64,000 bases of DNA from NCBI GenBank assembly GCA_964550855.1, contig CAZKBQ010000009.1:6009-70008 (forward strand), read 5' to 3'. The notes under the pieces are model-generated. The model saw nothing but the letters and a program-made list of their open reading frames with translations, made no database searches and was not told where the DNA came from. Each line of letters begins with the position of its first letter. Positions within the stretch are counted from its first letter, which is position 1. The translations under genes and the position numbers were made by a program. The DNA is from an uncultured Anaerolineae bacterium (GTDB lineage: Bacteria > Chloroflexota > Anaerolineae > Fen-1058). Of the stretch, positions 7,622 through 44,595 are shown in pieces.

Positions 7622-7650
7622 TTGACGCGGGCTGCGTCACGCGGTACACT
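7622..7650 (+). promoter_or_regulatory. Candidate sigma-70 promoter for the peptidase gene
   Basis: TTGACG (7622-7627), 17-nt spacer, TACACT (7645-7650). AAGGAG RBS at 7678-7683, 6 nt before GTG 7690. Confidence 0.45.
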
Positions 7651-7689: not shown

Positions 7690-9282
7690 GTGACTCACCC
7701 GTTGCAAACGTTCATCGACGATTACACGGCCCAGTTGGCCCCCCTGCTCACCGCGCGCAACCTGGCCTCGTGGCGGTTCTCCACGCAGGGCGACGCAACC
7801 GCACAGGCCGAATATGCCCGCCTCAGCACCGAGCTACGCCTGCTGCACGCCGACGCCGACCGCTTCGCGCGGCTCAAGGCGCTCTCGGCATCGCCCAGCG
7901 GCGACGCGCTGCTGGACCGGCAGGCGCAGTTGGCTCGTTACAGCTTCCAGTCGCAGCAGATGCCGCGCGATCTGATCGAGCAGATCGTGGCGCTGGAGAC
8001 GGAGATCGAGGCCGAGTTCAACGCCTATCGCGGCGTCATCGACGGACGCACCTACACCGACAACGAACTCAAGGCCCTGCTGCGCGACTCCAACGATGTG
8101 GCCCTGCGGCGGGCGGCCTGGGAAGCCAGCAAGCAGATCGGCGCGCAGGTGGCCGGGCGCGTGTTGAAGACAGTGGCCCTGCGTAATCAGGCCGCCCGCG
8201 CCATGGGCTTCGACAACTTCTACACCATGAGCCTGGCATTACAGGAGTTGGACGAAGCGCAGTTGTTCGATCTGTTTGATCGTCTGGAGCAGCTGACCCG
8301 CCCCTTGTTTGCCGCTTACAAAGCCGATCTCGATCGCCGGTTGGCCGATCGGTTTGGAATCCAACCCGATCGGCTGCGCCCCTGGCACTACGCCGATCCG
8401 TTCTTCCAGGAAGTGCCCGCCGATCCCGAACTCGACCTCGATCGCTTCTACGCGGATCAAGACGTGGTGGCGCTGACGCAGCAGTTCTATCAGGCCATCG
8501 GCCTGCCCATCGAAGACATCATCGCGCGCAGCGATTTGTACGAGCGGCCCGGCAAGTACCAACACGCCTATTGCGAAGACATGGATCGAGCGGGCGACGT
8601 GCGAGTCGTGTGCAACGTGCAGCCCAACGAATACTGGCTCAGCACGATGCTGCACGAGTACGGGCATGCCGTATACTTCAAGTATCTGGACTCGACGCTG
8701 CCGTTTTTACTGCGCGATCCCGCGCACACACTGAGCACCGAAGCGGTGGCGATGTTAATGGGCCGCCTCAGCGCCAACGGCGACTGGCTCAAGCGCTACG
8801 TCGGCGCGGCACCCGGTGAGATCGCGCAACTCGAAGGCCGCCTCGCCGCGCAGCAGCACGCCTCGCTGCTGGTCTTTACGCGCTGGGCGTTGACGATGTG
8901 CCACTTCGAGCGCGAACTGTATCGCGATCCACAGCAGGACTTGAACACGTCGTGGTGGAACCTTGTCGAAAAGTACCAGCTGGTCAGGCGCCCCGACGAT
9001 CGCCGCGCGCCCGATTGGGCCGCCAAAATTCATCTGGCGTGCTACCCGGCATATTATCAAAACTACATGCTGGGCGAGATGACGGCCTCGCAGCTGCTGG
9101 AATACATCACGCAGCGCGTGCTGAACGGCGAACGTGCGCGCTTTGTGGACAGCCCGCAAGTAGGCACGTATTTGAAAGAACGCTTCTTTCAGTTGGGCGC
9201 GCGCTTCGATTGGAACGGCGCGTTGAAAGCGGCCACCGGTGAAGAATTAAAGCCGGAGTATTTTGCCAGGCACCTGTCGTGA
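7690..9282 (+). CDS. Gluzincin zinc metallopeptidase (M2/M3-like peptidyl-dipeptidase / oligoendopeptidase)
   Basis: 530 aa with a GTG start behind a strong RBS. HEYGHAVY (HExxH) is followed about 25 aa later by STEAVAM (third-ligand Glu). The overall helical composition is typical of M2/M3 enzymes. Confidence 0.85.
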   Translation: MTHPLQTFIDDYTAQLAPLLTARNLASWRFSTQGDATAQAEYARLSTELRLLHADADRFARLKALSASPSGDALLDRQAQLARYSFQSQQMPRDLIEQIVALETEIEAEFNAYRGVIDGRTYTDNELKALLRDSNDVALRRAAWEASKQIGAQVAGRVLKTVALRNQAARAMGFDNFYTMSLALQELDEAQLFDLFDRLEQLTRPLFAAYKADLDRRLADRFGIQPDRLRPWHYADPFFQEVPADPELDLDRFYADQDVVALTQQFYQAIGLPIEDIIARSDLYERPGKYQHAYCEDMDRAGDVRVVCNVQPNEYWLSTMLHEYGHAVYFKYLDSTLPFLLRDPAHTLSTEAVAMLMGRLSANGDWLKRYVGAAPGEIAQLEGRLAAQQHASLLVFTRWALTMCHFERELYRDPQQDLNTSWWNLVEKYQLVRRPDDRRAPDWAAKIHLACYPAYYQNYMLGEMTASQLLEYITQRVLNGERARFVDSPQVGTYLKERFFQLGARFDWNGALKAATGEELKPEYFARHLS

Positions 9283-9373
9283 CGAGTAACGAGCAATGAG
9301 TAACGACTAACTCCGGGCTACTCATTACTCATTACTCGTTACTCATTAACATTACTCGTCACCCATTACTCAC
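9283..9373. repeat. Inverted heptanucleotide-repeat element (GAGTAAC x4 / TTACTCR x8)
   Basis: CGAGTAAC GAGCAAT GAGTAAC GACTAAC, then the loop TCCGGG, then CTACTCA TTACTCA TTACTCG TTACTCA TTAACA TTACTCG TCACCCA TTACTCA. It is AT-rich relative to its flanks and fills the spacer between the peptidase stop and the crotonase RBS. Confidence 0.85.
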
Positions 9374-9385
9374 GATGGAGCCCAC

Positions 9386-10171
9386 ATGGCCTACACCACC
9401 ATCCTGTACGACGTGGCCGACGGCGTTGCCACGCTGACGTTCAATCGGCCCGAAGTGCGCAACGCCTTCAACGACCTGATGGCCGAAGAGGTGCAAGCCG
9501 CCCTCAAAGCCGCCGAGCGTGACGAAGCGGTGCGCTGCCTCGTGATCACGGGTGCAGGGACGGGTTTCTGCGCCGGACAGGATTTGGCCGCCATCCAGGC
9601 GCGCGGCGATGACGCTTCATTCCGCGATCATCTGCTGAAGACCTACAACCCCATCGTGCTAAAGCTGCGCACCATCGAGAAGCCCGTCATCGCCGCCGTC
9701 AACGGTGCGGCGGCGGGCGCGGGCTGGGGCATGGCGCTGGCCTGCGATCTGCGCTACGCGGCCGAGAGCGCCAAATTCCGCTTTGCGTTTACGGGCATCG
9801 GCCTCACCGCCGATTCGGGCACATCGTTCTTTCTGCCCCGGCTGGTCGGCCTGGGCAAAGCGCTGGAACTGGCCTATACCAACGCCGTCGTCGATGCGAA
9901 TACGGCCCTATCGTTAGGGCTGATCAACGGCGTATTCGCGCCCGATCGGTTGATGCCGGCCACTTTGGACCTGGCCCGCCAATTGGCGCAGGCCCCCACG
10001 CGCGGCCTGGGTCTGACCAAGCGCGCCATGAATCACGCCCTCAACGTCGATCTGGCCGACGCGCTGGATTACGAAGCGCATTTGCAAGAGATCGCGGGCC
10101 GCACGGCGGATTATCGCGAAGGCGTGCAAGCCTTCCTCGAAAAACGCGCGCCCCGTTTCGCGGGAAAATGA
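9386..10171 (+). CDS. Enoyl-CoA hydratase/isomerase (crotonase) family protein
   Basis: 261 aa. LTFNRPEVRNAFN, GAGTGFCAGQDL and AAVNGAAAGAG oxyanion-hole segments. GGAG RBS upstream. Confidence 0.9.
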   Translation: MAYTTILYDVADGVATLTFNRPEVRNAFNDLMAEEVQAALKAAERDEAVRCLVITGAGTGFCAGQDLAAIQARGDDASFRDHLLKTYNPIVLKLRTIEKPVIAAVNGAAAGAGWGMALACDLRYAAESAKFRFAFTGIGLTADSGTSFFLPRLVGLGKALELAYTNAVVDANTALSLGLINGVFAPDRLMPATLDLARQLAQAPTRGLGLTKRAMNHALNVDLADALDYEAHLQEIAGRTADYREGVQAFLEKRAPRFAGK

Positions 10172-10179
10172 CCCCTGCT

Positions 10180-10251
10180 CAATGACAAATGACAAAACCC
10201 CATGGGGGCGCTTGCGTCATTTGTCATTGGTCGTTTTTCATTGGCCATTGG
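10180..10251. repeat. Inverted heptanucleotide-repeat element (AATGACA / TGTCATT type) with central CCCCATGGGG palindrome
   Basis: CAATGACAAATGAC (10180-10193) is the perfect reverse complement of GTCATTTGTCATTG (10216-10229). The loop contains the palindrome CCCCATGGGG (10198-10207). Further units GTCGTTT TTCATTG GCCATTG follow. Confidence 0.85.
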
Positions 10252-10259
10252 AGATTGCC

Positions 10260-10925
10260 ATGGAAACCACCTGGCGTCCGGTGCTGATCGCCGAAACCGA
10301 AAAGCCTTACTGGAAGCCCTTGCAGCAATTTGTGCGCGACGAGCGCAGCAAATACCAGGTCTTTCCGCCGGACAAGGAAGTCTTTGCTGCGCTGCACCTC
10401 ACGCCTTACGAAAAGGTCAGCGTGCTGATCTTAGGGCAGGACCCTTATCACGGCCCCGGCCAGGCGCACGGCCTGTGCTTCTCGGTGCGGCCCGGCGTGG
10501 ACGTGCCGCCGTCGCTGGTCAACATCTTCAAGGAACTGCACGACGATCTGGGCTGCAAAATTCCGAATCACGGCAACCTGACGCACTGGGCCGAGCAGGG
10601 CGTGCTGCTGCTCAACGCCGTGCTGACGGTGCGCGCCCATCAGGCCAACTCGCACGCCGGCAAAGGCTGGGAGAACTTTACCGACGCCGTCATCCGCGCG
10701 GTCAGCGCCAAACCCGATCGGGTGGTCTTTGTCCTGTGGGGCGCATACGCGCGCAAGAAGAAGCCGCTCATCGACATTTCGCGGCACGTCATCATCGAAT
10801 CGGCGCACCCGTCGCCGCTGTCGGCTGCCAACGGCTTCTTTGGCAGCCGCCCGTTCTCCAAGATCAACGCCGCGTTGCGCGAGGCCGGCAAGCCGGAGAT
10901 CGACTGGCAGATACCGGATATGTAA
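10260..10925 (+). CDS. ung: Uracil-DNA glycosylase, family 1
   Basis: 221 aa from ATG 10260; the 10182 start would translate the repeat element. Motifs GQDPYHGPGQAHGLCFSV and ESAHPSPLSA. Confidence 0.9.
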   Translation: METTWRPVLIAETEKPYWKPLQQFVRDERSKYQVFPPDKEVFAALHLTPYEKVSVLILGQDPYHGPGQAHGLCFSVRPGVDVPPSLVNIFKELHDDLGCKIPNHGNLTHWAEQGVLLLNAVLTVRAHQANSHAGKGWENFTDAVIRAVSAKPDRVVFVLWGAYARKKKPLIDISRHVIIESAHPSPLSAANGFFGSRPFSKINAALREAGKPEIDWQIPDM

Positions 10926-10998
10926 CGAGTAACCAGTAACGAGTTATCAACGGGCGGCGGTTGTGCCTTACGCCTTGCTCGTTACACATTACTCATTA
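10922..10998. repeat. Inverted heptanucleotide-repeat element (GTAACGA x4 / TTACTCR x5)
   Basis: GTAACGA GTAACCA GTAACGA GTTATCA, a GC-rich spacer, then TTACGCC TTGCTCG TTACACA TTACTCA TTA. It overlaps the ung stop and ends at the hbd RBS (TTAGAGG). Confidence 0.85.
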
Positions 10999-11007
10999 GA
11001 GGTCGGC

Positions 11008-11862
11008 ATGGACATCATCGGCATTCTGGGCGCAGGCACCATGGGCGCGGGCATCGCGCAGGTGGCCGCCAGCCACGGGCACAACGTGGTGCTGTACGAC
11101 GTGCAGGCGCAGTTCGCCCAGCGCGGCCTGGATCGCATCCGCCGCGAGCTGGAGCGCGCCGTCAAGAAGAGCCGCCTCACGCCGCAGGACATGGACGCCA
11201 CGCTGTCACACCTGTGGACGACAACCGATCTGTCCGATCTGCATACAGCTACCATCGTGATTGAAGCCGTGCCCGAAGACCTGGCGCTGAAACGCGACAT
11301 CTTCCGCTCGCTCGATCACCTGTGCTGCCCGGAAACGATCCTGTGCTCCAACACCTCGTCGCTGTCCATCGCCGCGCTGGCCGGCGTCACGGAACGGGCC
11401 GATCGGGTGGCCGGCCTGCACTTCTTCAACCCCGCGCCGGTCATGCCGCTAATCGAAGTCGTGCGCGCCGATTACACGTCCGATGAAACGATCAGCCACC
11501 TGCTCGATCTGGCGCGCCGTTGGGGCAAGACGCCCATCGTGGTCAGAGACACGCCGGGCTTCATCGTCAATCGGGTGGCGCGGCCGTTTTACGCCGAAGC
11601 GCTGCGCCTGCTCGATCATCATGTGGCCGATCCGGCTACAATCGATCGCATCGCGCGGGCGGCCGGCTTCAAGCTGGGGCCGTTTGAGCTGCTGGATCTG
11701 ATCGGGTTGGACGTGAACTTCGCCGTGACGCAGTCGATCTACAACGCGTTCTTTCAAGAACCGCGCTTCAAGCCGCATCCCATCCAGCAGCGCATGGTCG
11801 AAGCGAAGCGGCTGGGCCGCAAGACCGGCCACGGCTTCTACGACTATCCCGCCGAAAAGTAA
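11008..11862 (+). CDS. hbd: 3-hydroxybutyryl-CoA / 3-hydroxyacyl-CoA dehydrogenase
   Basis: 284 aa from ATG 11008. GAGTMGAGIA Rossmann loop, NTSS, HFFNPAPVMPLIE (catalytic His), and a C-terminal GRKTGHGFYDY dimerisation domain. Confidence 0.9.
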   Translation: MDIIGILGAGTMGAGIAQVAASHGHNVVLYDVQAQFAQRGLDRIRRELERAVKKSRLTPQDMDATLSHLWTTTDLSDLHTATIVIEAVPEDLALKRDIFRSLDHLCCPETILCSNTSSLSIAALAGVTERADRVAGLHFFNPAPVMPLIEVVRADYTSDETISHLLDLARRWGKTPIVVRDTPGFIVNRVARPFYAEALRLLDHHVADPATIDRIARAAGFKLGPFELLDLIGLDVNFAVTQSIYNAFFQEPRFKPHPIQQRMVEAKRLGRKTGHGFYDYPAEK

Positions 11863-17061: not shown

Positions 17062-17750
17062 GTCAGATGTTGCGCAAACCACGCCAGCGTCTTCTGCCAC
17101 GCATCCTGCGCCGCGGCCGCCTTGTAGATGTGCGGGCGCGTGTCGTTGAAGAAAGCGTGCTCGGCCTCAGGATAAATGTGAATCGCGTGGGGCACGCCGT
17201 GCTGTTCTAACTCCGCTTCAAACGCCCGCACCGCCTCCACCGGGATGCCGCGATCGCGATCGGCGTACAGCCCCAGCACCGGCACTTTCAGCCGCGTGGT
17301 GTCGCCCGCGGTTAGCGGCCGCCCGTAAAAGGCCACCGCCGCACCGAACAGGTCGCCGTGATGAGCTGCCGCCGACAGCGACAGTCCGCCGCCCATGCAC
17401 CAGCCGACTACGCCGATCGATTTGGGCGCAACGCGATCCAGCTTCTTCAGATAACGCGCCGCGGCTGCGATCTCCTGCACGGCCCGATTGGCATCCAGGC
17501 CCATCGCCAATTTCCGCGCCTCATCAGGCTCTTCGGCGGCCTGGCCATGATACAGGTCAGGCGCCAGCGCCACGTAACCTTCGCGCGCGAAGCGATTGGC
17601 CACGTCTTTGATGTGCGGCACCAGCCCCCACCATTCCTGAATGACGACAATCGCCGGGTGGGGTAGATCATCGTCGGGCTGGGCCAGATAACCCGGCGTC
17701 GCGTGTGCATTGATCGGATACTCAATCATCTTCGAAACAATCTTTGTCAT
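17058..17750 (-). CDS. Dienelactone hydrolase family protein
   Basis: 230 aa. [10 protein letters not shown], nucleophile elbow VVGWCMGGG, and a C-terminal HAFFND His. Its stop overlaps the convergent stop of 16276-17061 (CTAG). Confidence 0.9.
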
Positions 17751-17778: not shown

Positions 17779-17841
17779 TTACGTTTTACGTTTTACGTTT
17801 TACGTATTGCGTATTGCGTGTCACGTCTCACGTTTCACTCG
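17779..17841. repeat. Tandem heptanucleotide array (TTACGTN x9)
   Basis: TTACGTT x3, TTACGTA, TTGCGTA, TTGCGTG, TCACGTC, TCACGTT, TCACTCG. It has exact 7-nt phasing over 63 nt and lies in the spacer between two minus-strand genes. Confidence 0.9.
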
Positions 17842-20780: not shown

Positions 20781-20816
20781 GTAATGGGTAACGAGCAACG
20801 AACACTCGTTTGTTAC
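20781..20816. repeat. Short heptanucleotide-repeat hairpin (GTAATGG GTAACGA GCAACGA / TCGTT-T-GTTAC)
   Basis: It uses the same GTAACGA unit as the elements at 9283 and 10922. The imperfect inverted arms are GTAAC..AACGA / TCGTT.GTTAC. It lies between the two GT4 genes. Confidence 0.7.
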
Positions 20817-44553: not shown

Positions 44554-44595
44554 ACGTATTACGTATTGCGTATTACGTAAGGCGTGATACGCATC
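44554..44595. repeat. Tandem heptanucleotide array (RCGTATT x6)
   Basis: ACGTATT ACGTATT GCGTATT ACGTAAG GCGTGAT ACGCATC. It shares the exact 14-mer ACGTATTGCGTATT with the array at 17779-17841. It lies directly upstream of the ABC ATPase RBS. Confidence 0.85.

What the first reader, a model, noticed from the sequence alone, without database searches (positions are those of the whole stretch)
9283..10998. Family of intergenic inverted heptanucleotide-repeat hairpin elements (three copies around crotonase-ung-hbd)
Three consecutive intergenic spacers (9283-9373, 10180-10251, 10922-10998) have the same architecture. There are 2-4 tandem 7-mers, then a GC-rich spacer, then 4-8 tandem copies of the reverse-complement 7-mer.

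The units are GAGTAAC/GTAACGA versus TTACTCR in two elements, and AATGACA versus TGTCATT in the third. The third has a perfect 14-bp inverted repeat and a CCCCATGGGG loop palindrome.

These are the most AT-rich segments of the region. They occupy essentially the whole spacer, and the last unit runs into the downstream RBS (TTAGAGG, ATTGGAG). A shorter relative sits at 20781-20816.

Strict 7-nt phasing recalls the cyanobacterial STRR heptamer repeats, but these are arranged as hairpins. Possible roles are operon-internal attenuators or mRNA stabilisers, a protein-binding array, or slippage-prone contingency sequences.
Basis: seen in the sequence. Interest (0 to 1): 0.6.

Follow-up and report, generated by a model that had tools for sequence, protein, structure and literature searches.

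The report
Heptamer-repeat hairpins between operon genes
The three spacers hold real hairpins whose arms are runs of 7-base units; they belong to a genome-wide family of about 340 such arrays, the same kind as the "STRR" heptamer repeats long known in cyanobacteria, here in a GC-rich Chloroflexota genome.

Summary
All three spacers have an A-rich heptamer arm, a GC-richer loop and a T-rich complementary arm, running from the upstream stop codon to the downstream Shine-Dalgarno (SD) sequence.

They are not a local oddity. The 5.19-Mb, 63% GC genome holds 399 AT-rich period-7 arrays in 344 elements. In intergenic DNA, period 7 occurs 340 times against 31 in shuffles. Most units are variants of one degenerate heptamer, GTRANNN (TYACKYN on the other strand).

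About a quarter of the elements are hairpins, with a fixed polarity: purine-rich arm 5', pyrimidine-rich arm 3' (41:5).

The arrays change by exact 7-nt steps between strains. They persist at the same gene junctions across species and genera, while the unit sequence and the loop turn over. The two arms of one element co-vary.

The hairpins are absent from convergent gene ends and lack U-tails, so they are not terminators.

The same arms bracket small PF05635 ("23S rRNA intervening-sequence protein") genes. This holds once in this genome (hisC–hisB), in 10 of 11 loci in relatives and in one Bacteroidales locus.

Verdict: a new lineage for a known kind (STRR-like heptamer hairpins). Function is unresolved. 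The most likely reading is slippage-driven, tolerated palindromes transcribed as intercistronic stem-loops.

The parts
9278..9312 (+). Element 1, 5' purine-rich arm: GTGACGA GTAACGA GCAATGA GTAACGA CTAAC. The peptidase stop codon TGA (9280-9282) lies inside the first unit.
9313..9318 (+). Element 1 loop (CCGGGC region between the arms).
9319..9373 (+). Element 1, 3' pyrimidine-rich arm: about 8 units of TACTCAT/TACTCGT. It is followed by SD GGAG 9377-9380 and ATG 9386. One unit (7 nt at 9318) is missing in a 97%-identical strain.
10180..10196 (+). Element 2, 5' arm: (AATGACA) x2.3. An AAATGAC proto-unit contains the crotonase stop codon at 10169-10171.
10197..10215 (+). Element 2 loop, with the CCCCATGGGG palindrome. 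It is not conserved in congeners.
10216..10249 (+). Element 2, 3' arm: GTCATTT GTCATTG GTCGTTT TTCATTG GCCATT. It runs into SD GGAG 10250-10253, with ATG at 10260. A 7-nt deletion at 10227 is seen in a related strain.
10922..10944 (+). Element 3, 5' arm: GTAACGA GTAACCA GTAACGA G. The ung stop codon TAA (10923-10925) is inside the first unit.
10945..10974 (+). Element 3 GC-rich central spacer with its own small stem.
10975..11002 (+). Element 3, 3' arm: TTGCTCG TTACACA TTACTCA, then TTAGAGG, the unit that carries the SD. ATG at 11008.
20781..20816 (.). Small relative: GTAATGG GTAACGA GCAACGA / CTCGTTTGTTAC hairpin between two minus-strand genes.
17779..17835 (.). Single array (TTACGTT x8, decaying). 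It lies directly upstream of the SD and start of the minus-strand gene that begins at 17750. No partner arm; not structured as RNA (z +0.7).
44554..44585 (.). Single array (ACGTATT x3.7) upstream of a plus-strand gene start.

Best explanation
The three elements are copies of a genome-wide class of STRR-like heptanucleotide simple-sequence arrays. Their commonest complete form is a palindrome: a purine-rich arm, a loop, then the complementary pyrimidine-rich arm.

SHOWN:
- The arrays grow and shrink by whole 7-nt units (slippage).
- They stay at the same gene junction for genus- to family-level times, while the unit sequence and the loop turn over.
- The two arms of an element are kept complementary to each other.
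- The element spans the spacer from the upstream stop codon, which is often supplied by the first unit, to the SD of the next gene.

INFERRED:
- The elements are transcribed inside the operon. A promoter-like site lies at 7622-7650 and there is no terminator between the genes.
- The spacer then folds into one long stem-loop that brings the stop codon and the next ribosome-binding site to the base of the stem.
- I read them as self-perpetuating, largely tolerated repeat palindromes. Slippage would make the arrays, and intrastrand template switching or selection for pairing would keep the arms matched.
- The likely RNA-level effect is to fold the extra spacer out of the way. That could preserve translational coupling, offer a double-stranded processing or stability site, or both. 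A dedicated regulatory switch is less likely.

My split of the odds: tolerated or self-perpetuating about 45%, functional intercistronic RNA hairpin about 30%, part of a PF05635-linked system about 20%.
For: Family and excess:
- TRF finds 657 period-7 arrays against 275 at period 8 and 44 at period 5.
- There are 399 AT-rich arrays in 344 elements, and only 28 lie in core coding sequence.
- Intergenic period 7 occurs 340 times against 31 in shuffles.

Hairpin class and polarity:
- A-then-T pairs number 41 and T-then-A pairs 5.
- About 42 more single arrays have a short partner arm (control 13), 38 of 42 with the same polarity.
- 35 of 41 hairpins fold with z below -3.
- The polarity is 9:1 in relatives and 24:3 in cyanobacterial loci.

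Slippage: exact 7-nt deletions at 9318 and 10227 in a strain about 97% identical.

Persistence with turnover:
- The crotonase-ung spacer keeps the GTCATTK unit in three congeners, with 0-4 and 2-5 units in the arms and unrelated loops.
- The ung-hbd spacer keeps the arm-loop-arm-SD layout, but with different units: GAGTAAC, CAATGnn and ATGACCA.
- The hisC-hisB spacer holds arrays in all 9 syntenic relatives, from 4 genera.
- One array shows a unit gradient, AATGACA to AATGGAG to AATGAGT.

Arm co-variation: arms of the same element pair better than arms of different elements. Duplex energy is -1.00 against -0.80 kcal/nt, and 1 of 20000 permutations does as well.

Stop-to-SD span: for hairpins the median gap to the stop is 3 nt and to the start 12.5 nt. 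39 of 114 sense A-arrays overlap the stop codon.

Literature: 7-bp STRR hairpins lie between hupS and hupL in filamentous cyanobacteria and are suggested to act in transcript stability or translational coupling (PMC2670836).
Against: - There are no transcript data, so co-transcription, folding in vivo and any effect on expression are untested.
- The strict 5'-purine / 3'-pyrimidine polarity is not explained by slippage. The main units share one degenerate core (GTRA/TYAC), and the same TTACTCR unit recurs in Cyanobacteriota and Bacteroidota. Both points hint at a sequence-specific factor.
- Persistence at one junction across genera could mean selection rather than tolerance.
- Three quarters of the arrays have no partner arm, so hairpin formation cannot be the general reason they exist.
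- The tie to PF05635 genes is not predicted by a pure slippage model.
Confidence: 0.55

Rival explanations
1. The hairpins are gene-less members of one system with PF05635 ('23S rRNA intervening-sequence protein', Avd-like four-helix bundle) genes. On this reading the full form is arm - small gene - arm, inserted in the sense orientation in operon spacers or 5' UTRs. The protein would make, bind or depend on the heptamer arms, and the stems could be cut out of RNA by RNase III as rRNA intervening sequences are.
For: - This genome (contig C41, positions 10018-10653): hisC stop - (ACGTRAA)x7 - SD - 177-aa PF05635 ORF (51 bits, cut-off 33.8) - (TTACGYW)x7 - SD - hisB. The polarity and the stop-to-SD layout are the same as in the gene-less hairpins.
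- Ten of 11 evaluable top PF05635 loci in relatives are bracketed by inverted heptamer arrays.
- In a Bacteroidales locus the gene sits between (GAGTAAT)x22 and (CTCAYTA)x10.
- By contrast only about 6 of 3689 genes in this genome are bracketed A-then-T with complementary arms.
- The orthologous hisC-hisB spacers of 9 relatives hold arrays but no gene, so the cassette arrived where an array already was.
Against: - PF05635 copy number does not follow the TTACTCR array load. This genome has 1 copy and 89 hits, while relative G008 has 11 copies and 0 hits. Other unit types in those genomes were not counted.
- Only 1 PF05635 gene was found in 820 kb of array-bearing loci from other phyla.
- The loops of the 41 hairpins share no sequence with each other or with the cassette ends, so they are not deletion copies of one master element.
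- The direction of cause is open. The gene may simply insert into, or be tolerated in, pre-existing hairpin loops.
Confidence: 0.2
2. The arrays are binding sites for a global single-strand RNA- or DNA-binding protein. It would read a 4-nt core (GURA or UYAC) repeated every 7 nt and tune translation of the downstream gene. This follows the proposal for the TAACTGA repeats of Beggiatoaceae.
For: - The main units are variants of one degenerate heptamer with a constant GTRA/TYAC core.
- T-rich arrays end about 20 nt before start codons, abutting the SD.
- The same unit occurs in distant phyla.
- The literature proposes this role for heptamers upstream of start codons (PMC4679880; bioRxiv 10.1101/2022.06.06.494920).
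Against: - Arrays occur in both orientations relative to transcription: 114 are A-rich and 86 T-rich on the sense strand.
- The unit at one junction differs between congeners.
- No HutP or TRAP homologue, the known readers of phased triplets, exists in 23 family or class genomes.
- No candidate binder was identified.
Confidence: 0.1
3. Operon-internal intrinsic terminators or attenuators. The stem-loop followed by the U-rich remainder of the longer 3' arm would pause or terminate RNA polymerase.
For: - The A-tract - stem - T-tract polarity is that of bidirectional intrinsic terminators.
- Element 2 is followed by GUCGUUUUUCAUU.
- One terminator-like hit lies on the antisense strand at 10197-10209.
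Against: - None of the 41 hairpins lies between convergent genes, and arrays overall are depleted there by a factor of 2.3.
- The scan finds no sense-strand terminator-like site.
- The SD and start follow within about 12 nt.
- Elements 1 and 3 lack a U-run.
Confidence: 0.07
4. Contingency (phase-variation) loci, or mobile MITE/REP-type elements.
For: - Unit number varies between strains.
- The elements are palindromic and dispersed.
Against: - The arrays sit between a stop codon and an SD, not within ORFs or between the -35 and -10 boxes.
- They have no fixed ends, target duplications or conserved loop.
- They are ancient at orthologous sites.
- The genome's one RAYT-like Y1 transposase is flanked by its own, unrelated GC-rich REP palindromes.
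Confidence: 0.04

Closest known systems
Cyanobacterial STRR (short tandemly repeated repetitive) heptanucleotide sequences, including the hairpin-forming ones between hupS-hupL and between nif genes (PMC2670836; Jackman & Mulligan 1995, as cited there)
   Same: - 7-nt units in intergenic DNA, inside operons.
- Inverted arrays that can fold as hairpins.
- Variable between close relatives while the structure is kept.
- Function unknown.
- The same TTACTCR unit and the same A-then-T polarity occur in cyanobacterial loci.
   Different: - The host is a 63% GC Chloroflexota (Anaerolineae-like) genome, where the arrays are AT-rich islands.
- One degenerate unit family (GTRANNN) dominates.
- I did not find the polarity rule, the stop-codon-to-SD span or the PF05635 link in the literature I could search.
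TAACTGA heptamer direct repeats of marine Beggiatoaceae, some Cyanobacteria and Bacteroidetes (MacGregor 2015, PMC4679880)
   Same: - Hundreds of short heptamer arrays immediately upstream of start codons.
- Patchy distribution across phyla.
- The unit contains stop codons.
- One relative's PF05635 gene is flanked by TAACTGA units (locus L133).
   Different: - There, nearly all arrays are direct repeats in one orientation (only one indirect repeat was reported) and overlap the ribosome-binding site.
- Here both orientations occur, a quarter are hairpins, and a normal SD follows.
Long simple sequence repeats (LSSR) of prokaryotes, in which heptanucleotides are the commonest class (Mrazek et al. 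2007, as summarised in PMC4679880), and the GGGAATC arrays of Xanthomonas and Nostoc (PMC4692102)
   Same: - A period-7 excess attributed to polymerase slippage.
- Intergenic location.
   Different: Those surveys describe direct arrays. They do not describe paired arms with a fixed polarity.
23S rRNA intervening sequences carrying an S23p/PF05635 ORF (Leptospira, Coxiella; from my own knowledge)
   Same: A long stem with a small four-helix-bundle gene in the loop, inserted in a transcribed region. This is the same layout as the hisC-hisB cassette on contig C41 of this genome.
   Different: The elements here lie in mRNA spacers, not rRNA. The arms are tandem heptamers. RNase III excision was not tested. 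The three elements of the finding carry no gene.

Membership tests
STRR / heptanucleotide LSSR | Tandem head-to-tail repeats with a 7-nt unit, in excess over other periods | tested here: met
   TRF finds 657 arrays at period 7 against 275 at period 8. In intergenic DNA the count is 340 against 31 in shuffles.
STRR / heptanucleotide LSSR | Non-coding location, many dispersed copies per genome | tested here: met
   There are 344 elements, and 28 of 399 arrays lie in core coding sequence.
STRR / heptanucleotide LSSR | Unit-number variation by slippage between close strains | tested here: met
   Exact 7-nt deletions at 9318 and 10227 in contigs of a related strain.
STRR / heptanucleotide LSSR | Host is a (heterocystous or filamentous) cyanobacterium, as in the original definition | tested here: not met
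   The nearest named relative is an Anaerolineae MAG at 79-83% nt identity. The kind is therefore the same and the lineage is new.
Intrinsic terminator | GC-rich stem followed directly by a U-run, enriched at the 3' ends of transcription units | tested here: not met
   No sense-strand hit. None of the 41 hairpins lies in a convergent spacer.
REP/BIME with RAYT | A conserved 20-40 nt palindrome family associated with a Y1 (RAYT) transposase gene flanked by the same palindromes | tested here: not met
   The RAYT-like gene on contig C30 of this genome is flanked by a different GC-rich palindrome, and no heptamer arrays lie near it.
MITE | Copies with a conserved internal sequence, defined terminal inverted repeats and target-site duplications | tested here: not met
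   The loops of the 41 hairpins are unrelated and the arm lengths vary by units. The sites are orthologous across genera.
PF05635 (IVP) cassette with heptamer arms | A PF05635 gene lying between inverted heptamer arrays | tested here: not met
   The three elements of the finding have 6-30 nt loops and carry no ORF. The feature is met at contig C41 of this genome and in 10 of 11 loci of relatives.
Phase-variable contingency locus | Repeat placed within an ORF or in promoter spacing, so that unit number switches expression | tested here: not met
   The arrays lie between the stop codon and the SD of co-directional genes.
Rfam RNA families | Match to a curated covariance model | tested here: not met
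   Only sub-threshold hits to plant miRNA hairpins, about 25 bits against gathering scores of 90-96.

The most novel reading that the evidence does not exclude
Heptamer-armed hairpins, single heptamer arrays and the small PF05635 (Avd-like, '23S rRNA intervening-sequence') genes may form one cross-phylum system, seen in Cyanobacteriota, Bacteroidota, Chloroflexota and Beggiatoaceae.

On this reading the four-helix-bundle protein recognises or helps to make arms with a phased GTRA/TYAC-type core. That would explain three things: the fixed purine-5' / pyrimidine-3' polarity, the recurrence of the same units in unrelated phyla, and why bacteria favour 7-nt repeats.

The hairpins would then be 'intervening sequences' of mRNAs, folded and perhaps cut at the stem.
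Probability: 0.2. Interest if true: 0.8.

Novelty: new member of a known kind. Interest (0 to 1): 0.5.

Why it matters
Heptamer repeats (STRR) have been known since 1990 without an accepted function or origin.

This genome shows them outside cyanobacteria, as AT-rich islands in GC-rich DNA. That contrast makes several rules easy to see:
- a fixed arm polarity;
- a span from stop codon to ribosome-binding site;
- arms that co-vary while the unit sequence turns over;
- persistence at the same junction across genera.

Together with the repeated bracketing of PF05635 genes, these rules give concrete experiments on an old open question. The candidates are RNA end-mapping, arm-deletion reporters and binding assays with one small protein.

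For annotation, the arrays explain assembly breaks. They also cause mis-called start codons: ung and hbd are both over-extended into arrays when the first possible start is taken.

Tried and rejected
- **Rfam scan of 9000-11300:** only spurious sub-threshold miRNA hairpin hits.
- **RNA-seq runs:** none available, so no transcript test was possible.
- **HutP and TRAP:** these proteins read triplets phased every 5-7 nt. Neither is present in 23 related genomes.
- **REP/RAYT:** the genome has a RAYT-like gene with its own, unrelated REPs.
- **Other cargo between arms:** long-range A-then-T array pairs (18, of which 6 are complementary) are no commoner than T-then-A pairs (29, of which 9). Only contig C41 (the PF05635 gene) and C9:86054-87412 in genome coordinates (two small ORFs) look like cassettes.
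- **Start-codon avoidance as the cause of the polarity:** only a weak effect. Among A-sense arrays, ATG occurs in 27% of units near starts and in 49% far from them, and my start calls are crude.
- **Positional rule in divergent spacers:** no bias. Whether the polarity is geometric or set by translation signals stays open.
- **The 'control' column is not a valid control.** TTACTCA read backwards is a rotation of itself.
- **Absence of TTACTCR in genera g2, g3, g6 and g7 does not mean absence of heptamer arrays.** Their PF05635 loci carry other units.
- **Synteny with relative G002** was too short to compare the single arrays at 17779 and 44554.
Full report
**1. The observation**

The sequence at 9283-9373, 10180-10251 and 10922-10998 is as described. 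TRF reports period-7 arrays in each spacer.

The inverted-repeat finder gives these arm pairs:

| Element | Arms | Length | Complementary |
|---|---|---|---|
| 1 | 9284-9309 / 9319-9344 | 26 nt | 88% |
| 2 | 10180-10193 / 10216-10229 | 14 nt | 100% |
| 3 | 10923-10943 / 10978-10998 | 21 nt | 81% |

As RNA the spacers fold as follows:

| Element | Energy (kcal/mol) | z-score |
|---|---|---|
| 1 | -32.0 | -6.1 |
| 2 | -28.8 | -1.6 |
| 3 | -26.7 | -3.3 |

The flanking genes are an M2/M3-type peptidase, an enoyl-CoA hydratase, a uracil-DNA glycosylase and a 3-hydroxyacyl-CoA dehydrogenase. All lie on the plus strand. The only promoter-like site is upstream of the peptidase, at 7622-7650.

In elements 1 and 3 the upstream stop codon lies inside the first unit (GTGACGA, GTAACGA). 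In all three the last 3' unit abuts the SD.

**2. It is a genome-wide family**

The window is positions 6009-70008 of contig C9 in a 5.19-Mb, 160-contig assembly of 63% GC.

- TRF finds 657 arrays at period 7, against 275 at period 8 and 44 at period 5.
- In intergenic DNA, period 7 occurs 340 times against 31 in dinucleotide shuffles. Period 14 occurs 105 times against 3.
- After merging there are 399 AT-rich arrays in 344 elements, and only 28 lie in core coding sequence.
- The commonest units on the T-rich strand are ACTCATT 59, ACTCATC 55, ACGTTTT 46, ACTCGTT 44, CACTCGT 36, CACGTTT 25 and ACGCATT 25.
- Read from a common start, these are variants of one degenerate heptamer: GTRANNN, or TYACKYN on the other strand.
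- The A-rich strand carries TAA or TGA in 324 of 399 units (259 expected from letter-shuffled units) and never TAG. The T-rich strand is depleted of stops (49 against 112 expected) and almost free of ATG and GTG.

**3. Architecture rules**

*Polarity.* Of the 344 elements, 41 are A-arm then T-arm and 5 are T then A. This pattern reads the same on both strands, so it is a real polarity. About 42 further single arrays have a short complementary partner (control 13), and 38 of these 42 show the same polarity. The same polarity holds in relatives (9:1) and in cyanobacterial loci (24:3).

*Folding.* Thirty-five of 41 hairpins fold with z below -3. Their loops have a median of 10 nt at 55% GC, and the arms are 38% GC.

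*Arm matching.* Arms of one element fit each other better than arms of other elements. Duplex energy is -1.00 against -0.80 kcal/nt, and 1 of 20000 permutations does as well. Shared 7-mers are 0.34 against 0.22, reached by 47 of 20000 permutations.

*Position on the sense strand.*
- A-rich arrays begin at the stop codon: the median gap is 6 nt, and 39 of 114 overlap the stop.
- T-rich arrays end about 20 nt before the start.
- Hairpins span from 3 nt after the stop to 12.5 nt before the start (medians).

*Gene context.* Arrays sit mostly between co-directional genes (246). They are depleted between convergent genes (18 against about 41 expected), and no hairpin lies there.

Three quarters of the elements are single arrays without a partner arm. 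These include 17779-17835 and 44554-44585 in the window, which are not structured as RNA.

**4. Dynamics**

Contigs from sludge, wastewater and biofilm metagenomes carry a strain about 97% identical. One of them lacks exactly 7 nt at 9318 and exactly 7 nt at 10227. Several assemblies break at element 1. The window itself comes from a hot-spring metagenome.

In three congeners (Ung 89% identical) the two spacers behave differently:
- The crotonase-ung spacer keeps the GTCATTK unit. The arms have 0-4 and 2-5 units, and the loops are unrelated.
- The ung-hbd spacer keeps the arm-loop-arm-SD layout, but the units differ: GAGTAAC/TTACTCA here, CAATGnn/CATTGnn in one congener and ATGACCA/TCATTGn in another.

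Three further alignable spacers gave one gain or loss and two arrays conserved in place with different units. One 17-unit array shows a gradient from AATGACA to AATGGAG to AATGAGT.

So the arrays are old at their sites. Inside them, the units turn over, and in hairpins the two arms change together.

**5. Distribution**

Runs of TTACTCR occur in this genus and in two other genera of the family, but in no other family of the class sampled. Four copies of TTACTCR in a row occur in more than 120 stretches of Cyanobacteriota, Bacteroidota and Chloroflexota genomes. The nearest named genome is an Anaerolineae MAG at 79-83% nt identity.

**6. What is known**

- Heptanucleotides are the commonest long simple-sequence repeats in prokaryotes, and slippage is the proposed cause (summarised in PMC4679880).
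- TAACTGA arrays just upstream of start codons were described in Beggiatoaceae, cyanobacteria and Bacteroidetes, with a proposed translational role.
- In Nostoc, heptamer arrays near start codons affect reporter output, but the mechanism is unknown.
- Hairpin-forming STRRs of 7-bp units between co-transcribed genes (hupS-hupL) are called 'not unusual in filamentous cyanobacteria'. They are suggested to stabilise transcripts or to couple translation (PMC2670836).
- I found nothing on such repeats in Chloroflexota.

The kind is therefore known, and the lineage is new.

**7. The PF05635 lead, tested here**

Earlier notes of this scan claimed that heptamer arms bracket PF05635 genes. I checked this independently.

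- PF05635 genes are present in 35 of 41 relatives, with up to 18 copies.
- Of the 12 top loci, 11 could be evaluated, and 10 of these have inverted heptamer arrays on both sides.
- This genome has one such gene, on contig C41: hisC stop - (ACGTRAA)x7 - SD - 177-aa ORF - (TTACGYW)x7 - SD - hisB.
- The orthologous hisC-hisB spacer in 9 syntenic relatives from 4 genera always holds GAGTRAY-type arrays or hairpins, but never the gene.
- A Bacteroidales locus has the gene between (GAGTAAT)x22 and (CTCAYTA)x10.

Against a simple dependence:
- Copy number does not follow the TTACTCR load.
- Only one PF05635 gene lies in 820 kb of array-bearing loci.
- The hairpin loops are unrelated to each other.

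The association is real. Its meaning is open.

**8. Mechanism**

*Shown:* 7-nt slippage, arm co-variation, polarity, the stop-to-SD span, persistence with turnover, and absence from convergent gene ends.

*Inferred:* the elements are transcribed within the operon and fold the spacer into one stem-loop, which brings the stop codon and the next ribosome-binding site together.

I favour self-perpetuating, tolerated palindromes, kept matched by template switching or by selection for pairing. Their fold neutralises the added length and may offer a double-stranded processing or stability site.

Terminator, contingency-locus, REP and MITE readings fail specific tests. A sequence-specific factor, possibly the PF05635 protein, remains the best candidate to explain the polarity and the shared unit core. 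I rate that reading at about 0.2.

**9. Verdict**

This is a new member of a known kind, of moderate interest. The main unexplained features are the polarity rule and the PF05635 link.

Noticed in passing
own genome, contig C41:10018-10653 (outside the window): A 177-aa PF05635 (23S rRNA IVP-like) gene is inserted in the sense orientation between hisC and hisB. It is bracketed by (ACGTRAA)x7 and (TTACGYW)x7 arms, each followed by an SD. Nine syntenic relatives have only gene-less arrays at this junction.
   Followed up: yes
own genome, contig C24:29400-30250 (outside the window): A locus that looks like a diversity-generating retroelement. The C-terminus of a target gene reads ...GGSWG...RVAFRF...GFRC. 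It is followed by an Avd-like ORF (PF05635, 21.9 bits, below cut-off) and then a near-copy of the target's 3' end in which many positions are A, as in a template repeat.
   Followed up: no
own genome, contig C30:10100-11100 (outside the window): A RAYT-like Y1 transposase gene (PF01797, 29.5 bits) is flanked by several copies of a GC-rich palindrome (CAAGGCGGAYGANAGTCCGCCG). This is a REP-type family separate from the heptamer arrays.
   Followed up: partly
own genome, contig C9:86054-87412 (about 16 kb beyond the window end): Strongly complementary A-then-T heptamer arms bracket two small minus-strand ORFs. One, of 134 aa, has a DTGA retropepsin-like motif. The other is 135 aa. This is a possible second cassette between arms.
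   Followed up: partly
own genome, contig C55:2298-2526 (outside the window): A 17-unit array upstream of a minus-strand gene changes unit along its length (AATGACA, AATGGAG, AATGGGT, AATGAGT, GATGAGT). The orthologous site in a congener has only (AATGACA)x4.
   Followed up: partly
window 7622-7650: A promoter-like TTGACG-17-TACACT lies upstream of the peptidase gene. A similar TTGACG...GGTACACT motif precedes ung in four genomes of a sister genus, where ung is not linked to the crotonase and hbd genes.
   Followed up: no
window 10182-10259 and 10963-11007: Mechanical ORF calling extends ung and hbd upstream into the heptamer arrays, because the first start codon lies inside an array. The real starts, behind an SD, are ATG 10260 and ATG 11008.
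   Followed up: yes
loci L132, L133 and L135 (relatives G008, G002 and G015): In three genera the same promoter-like leader (cttgac...ttcagaataagat) is followed by arm - PF05635 gene - arm, and then the same downstream gene (ATGACTGAACGAGTAGC...). This is an old, vertically inherited cassette in a 5' UTR. In G002 the 3' arm is built of TAACTGA units.
   Followed up: partly
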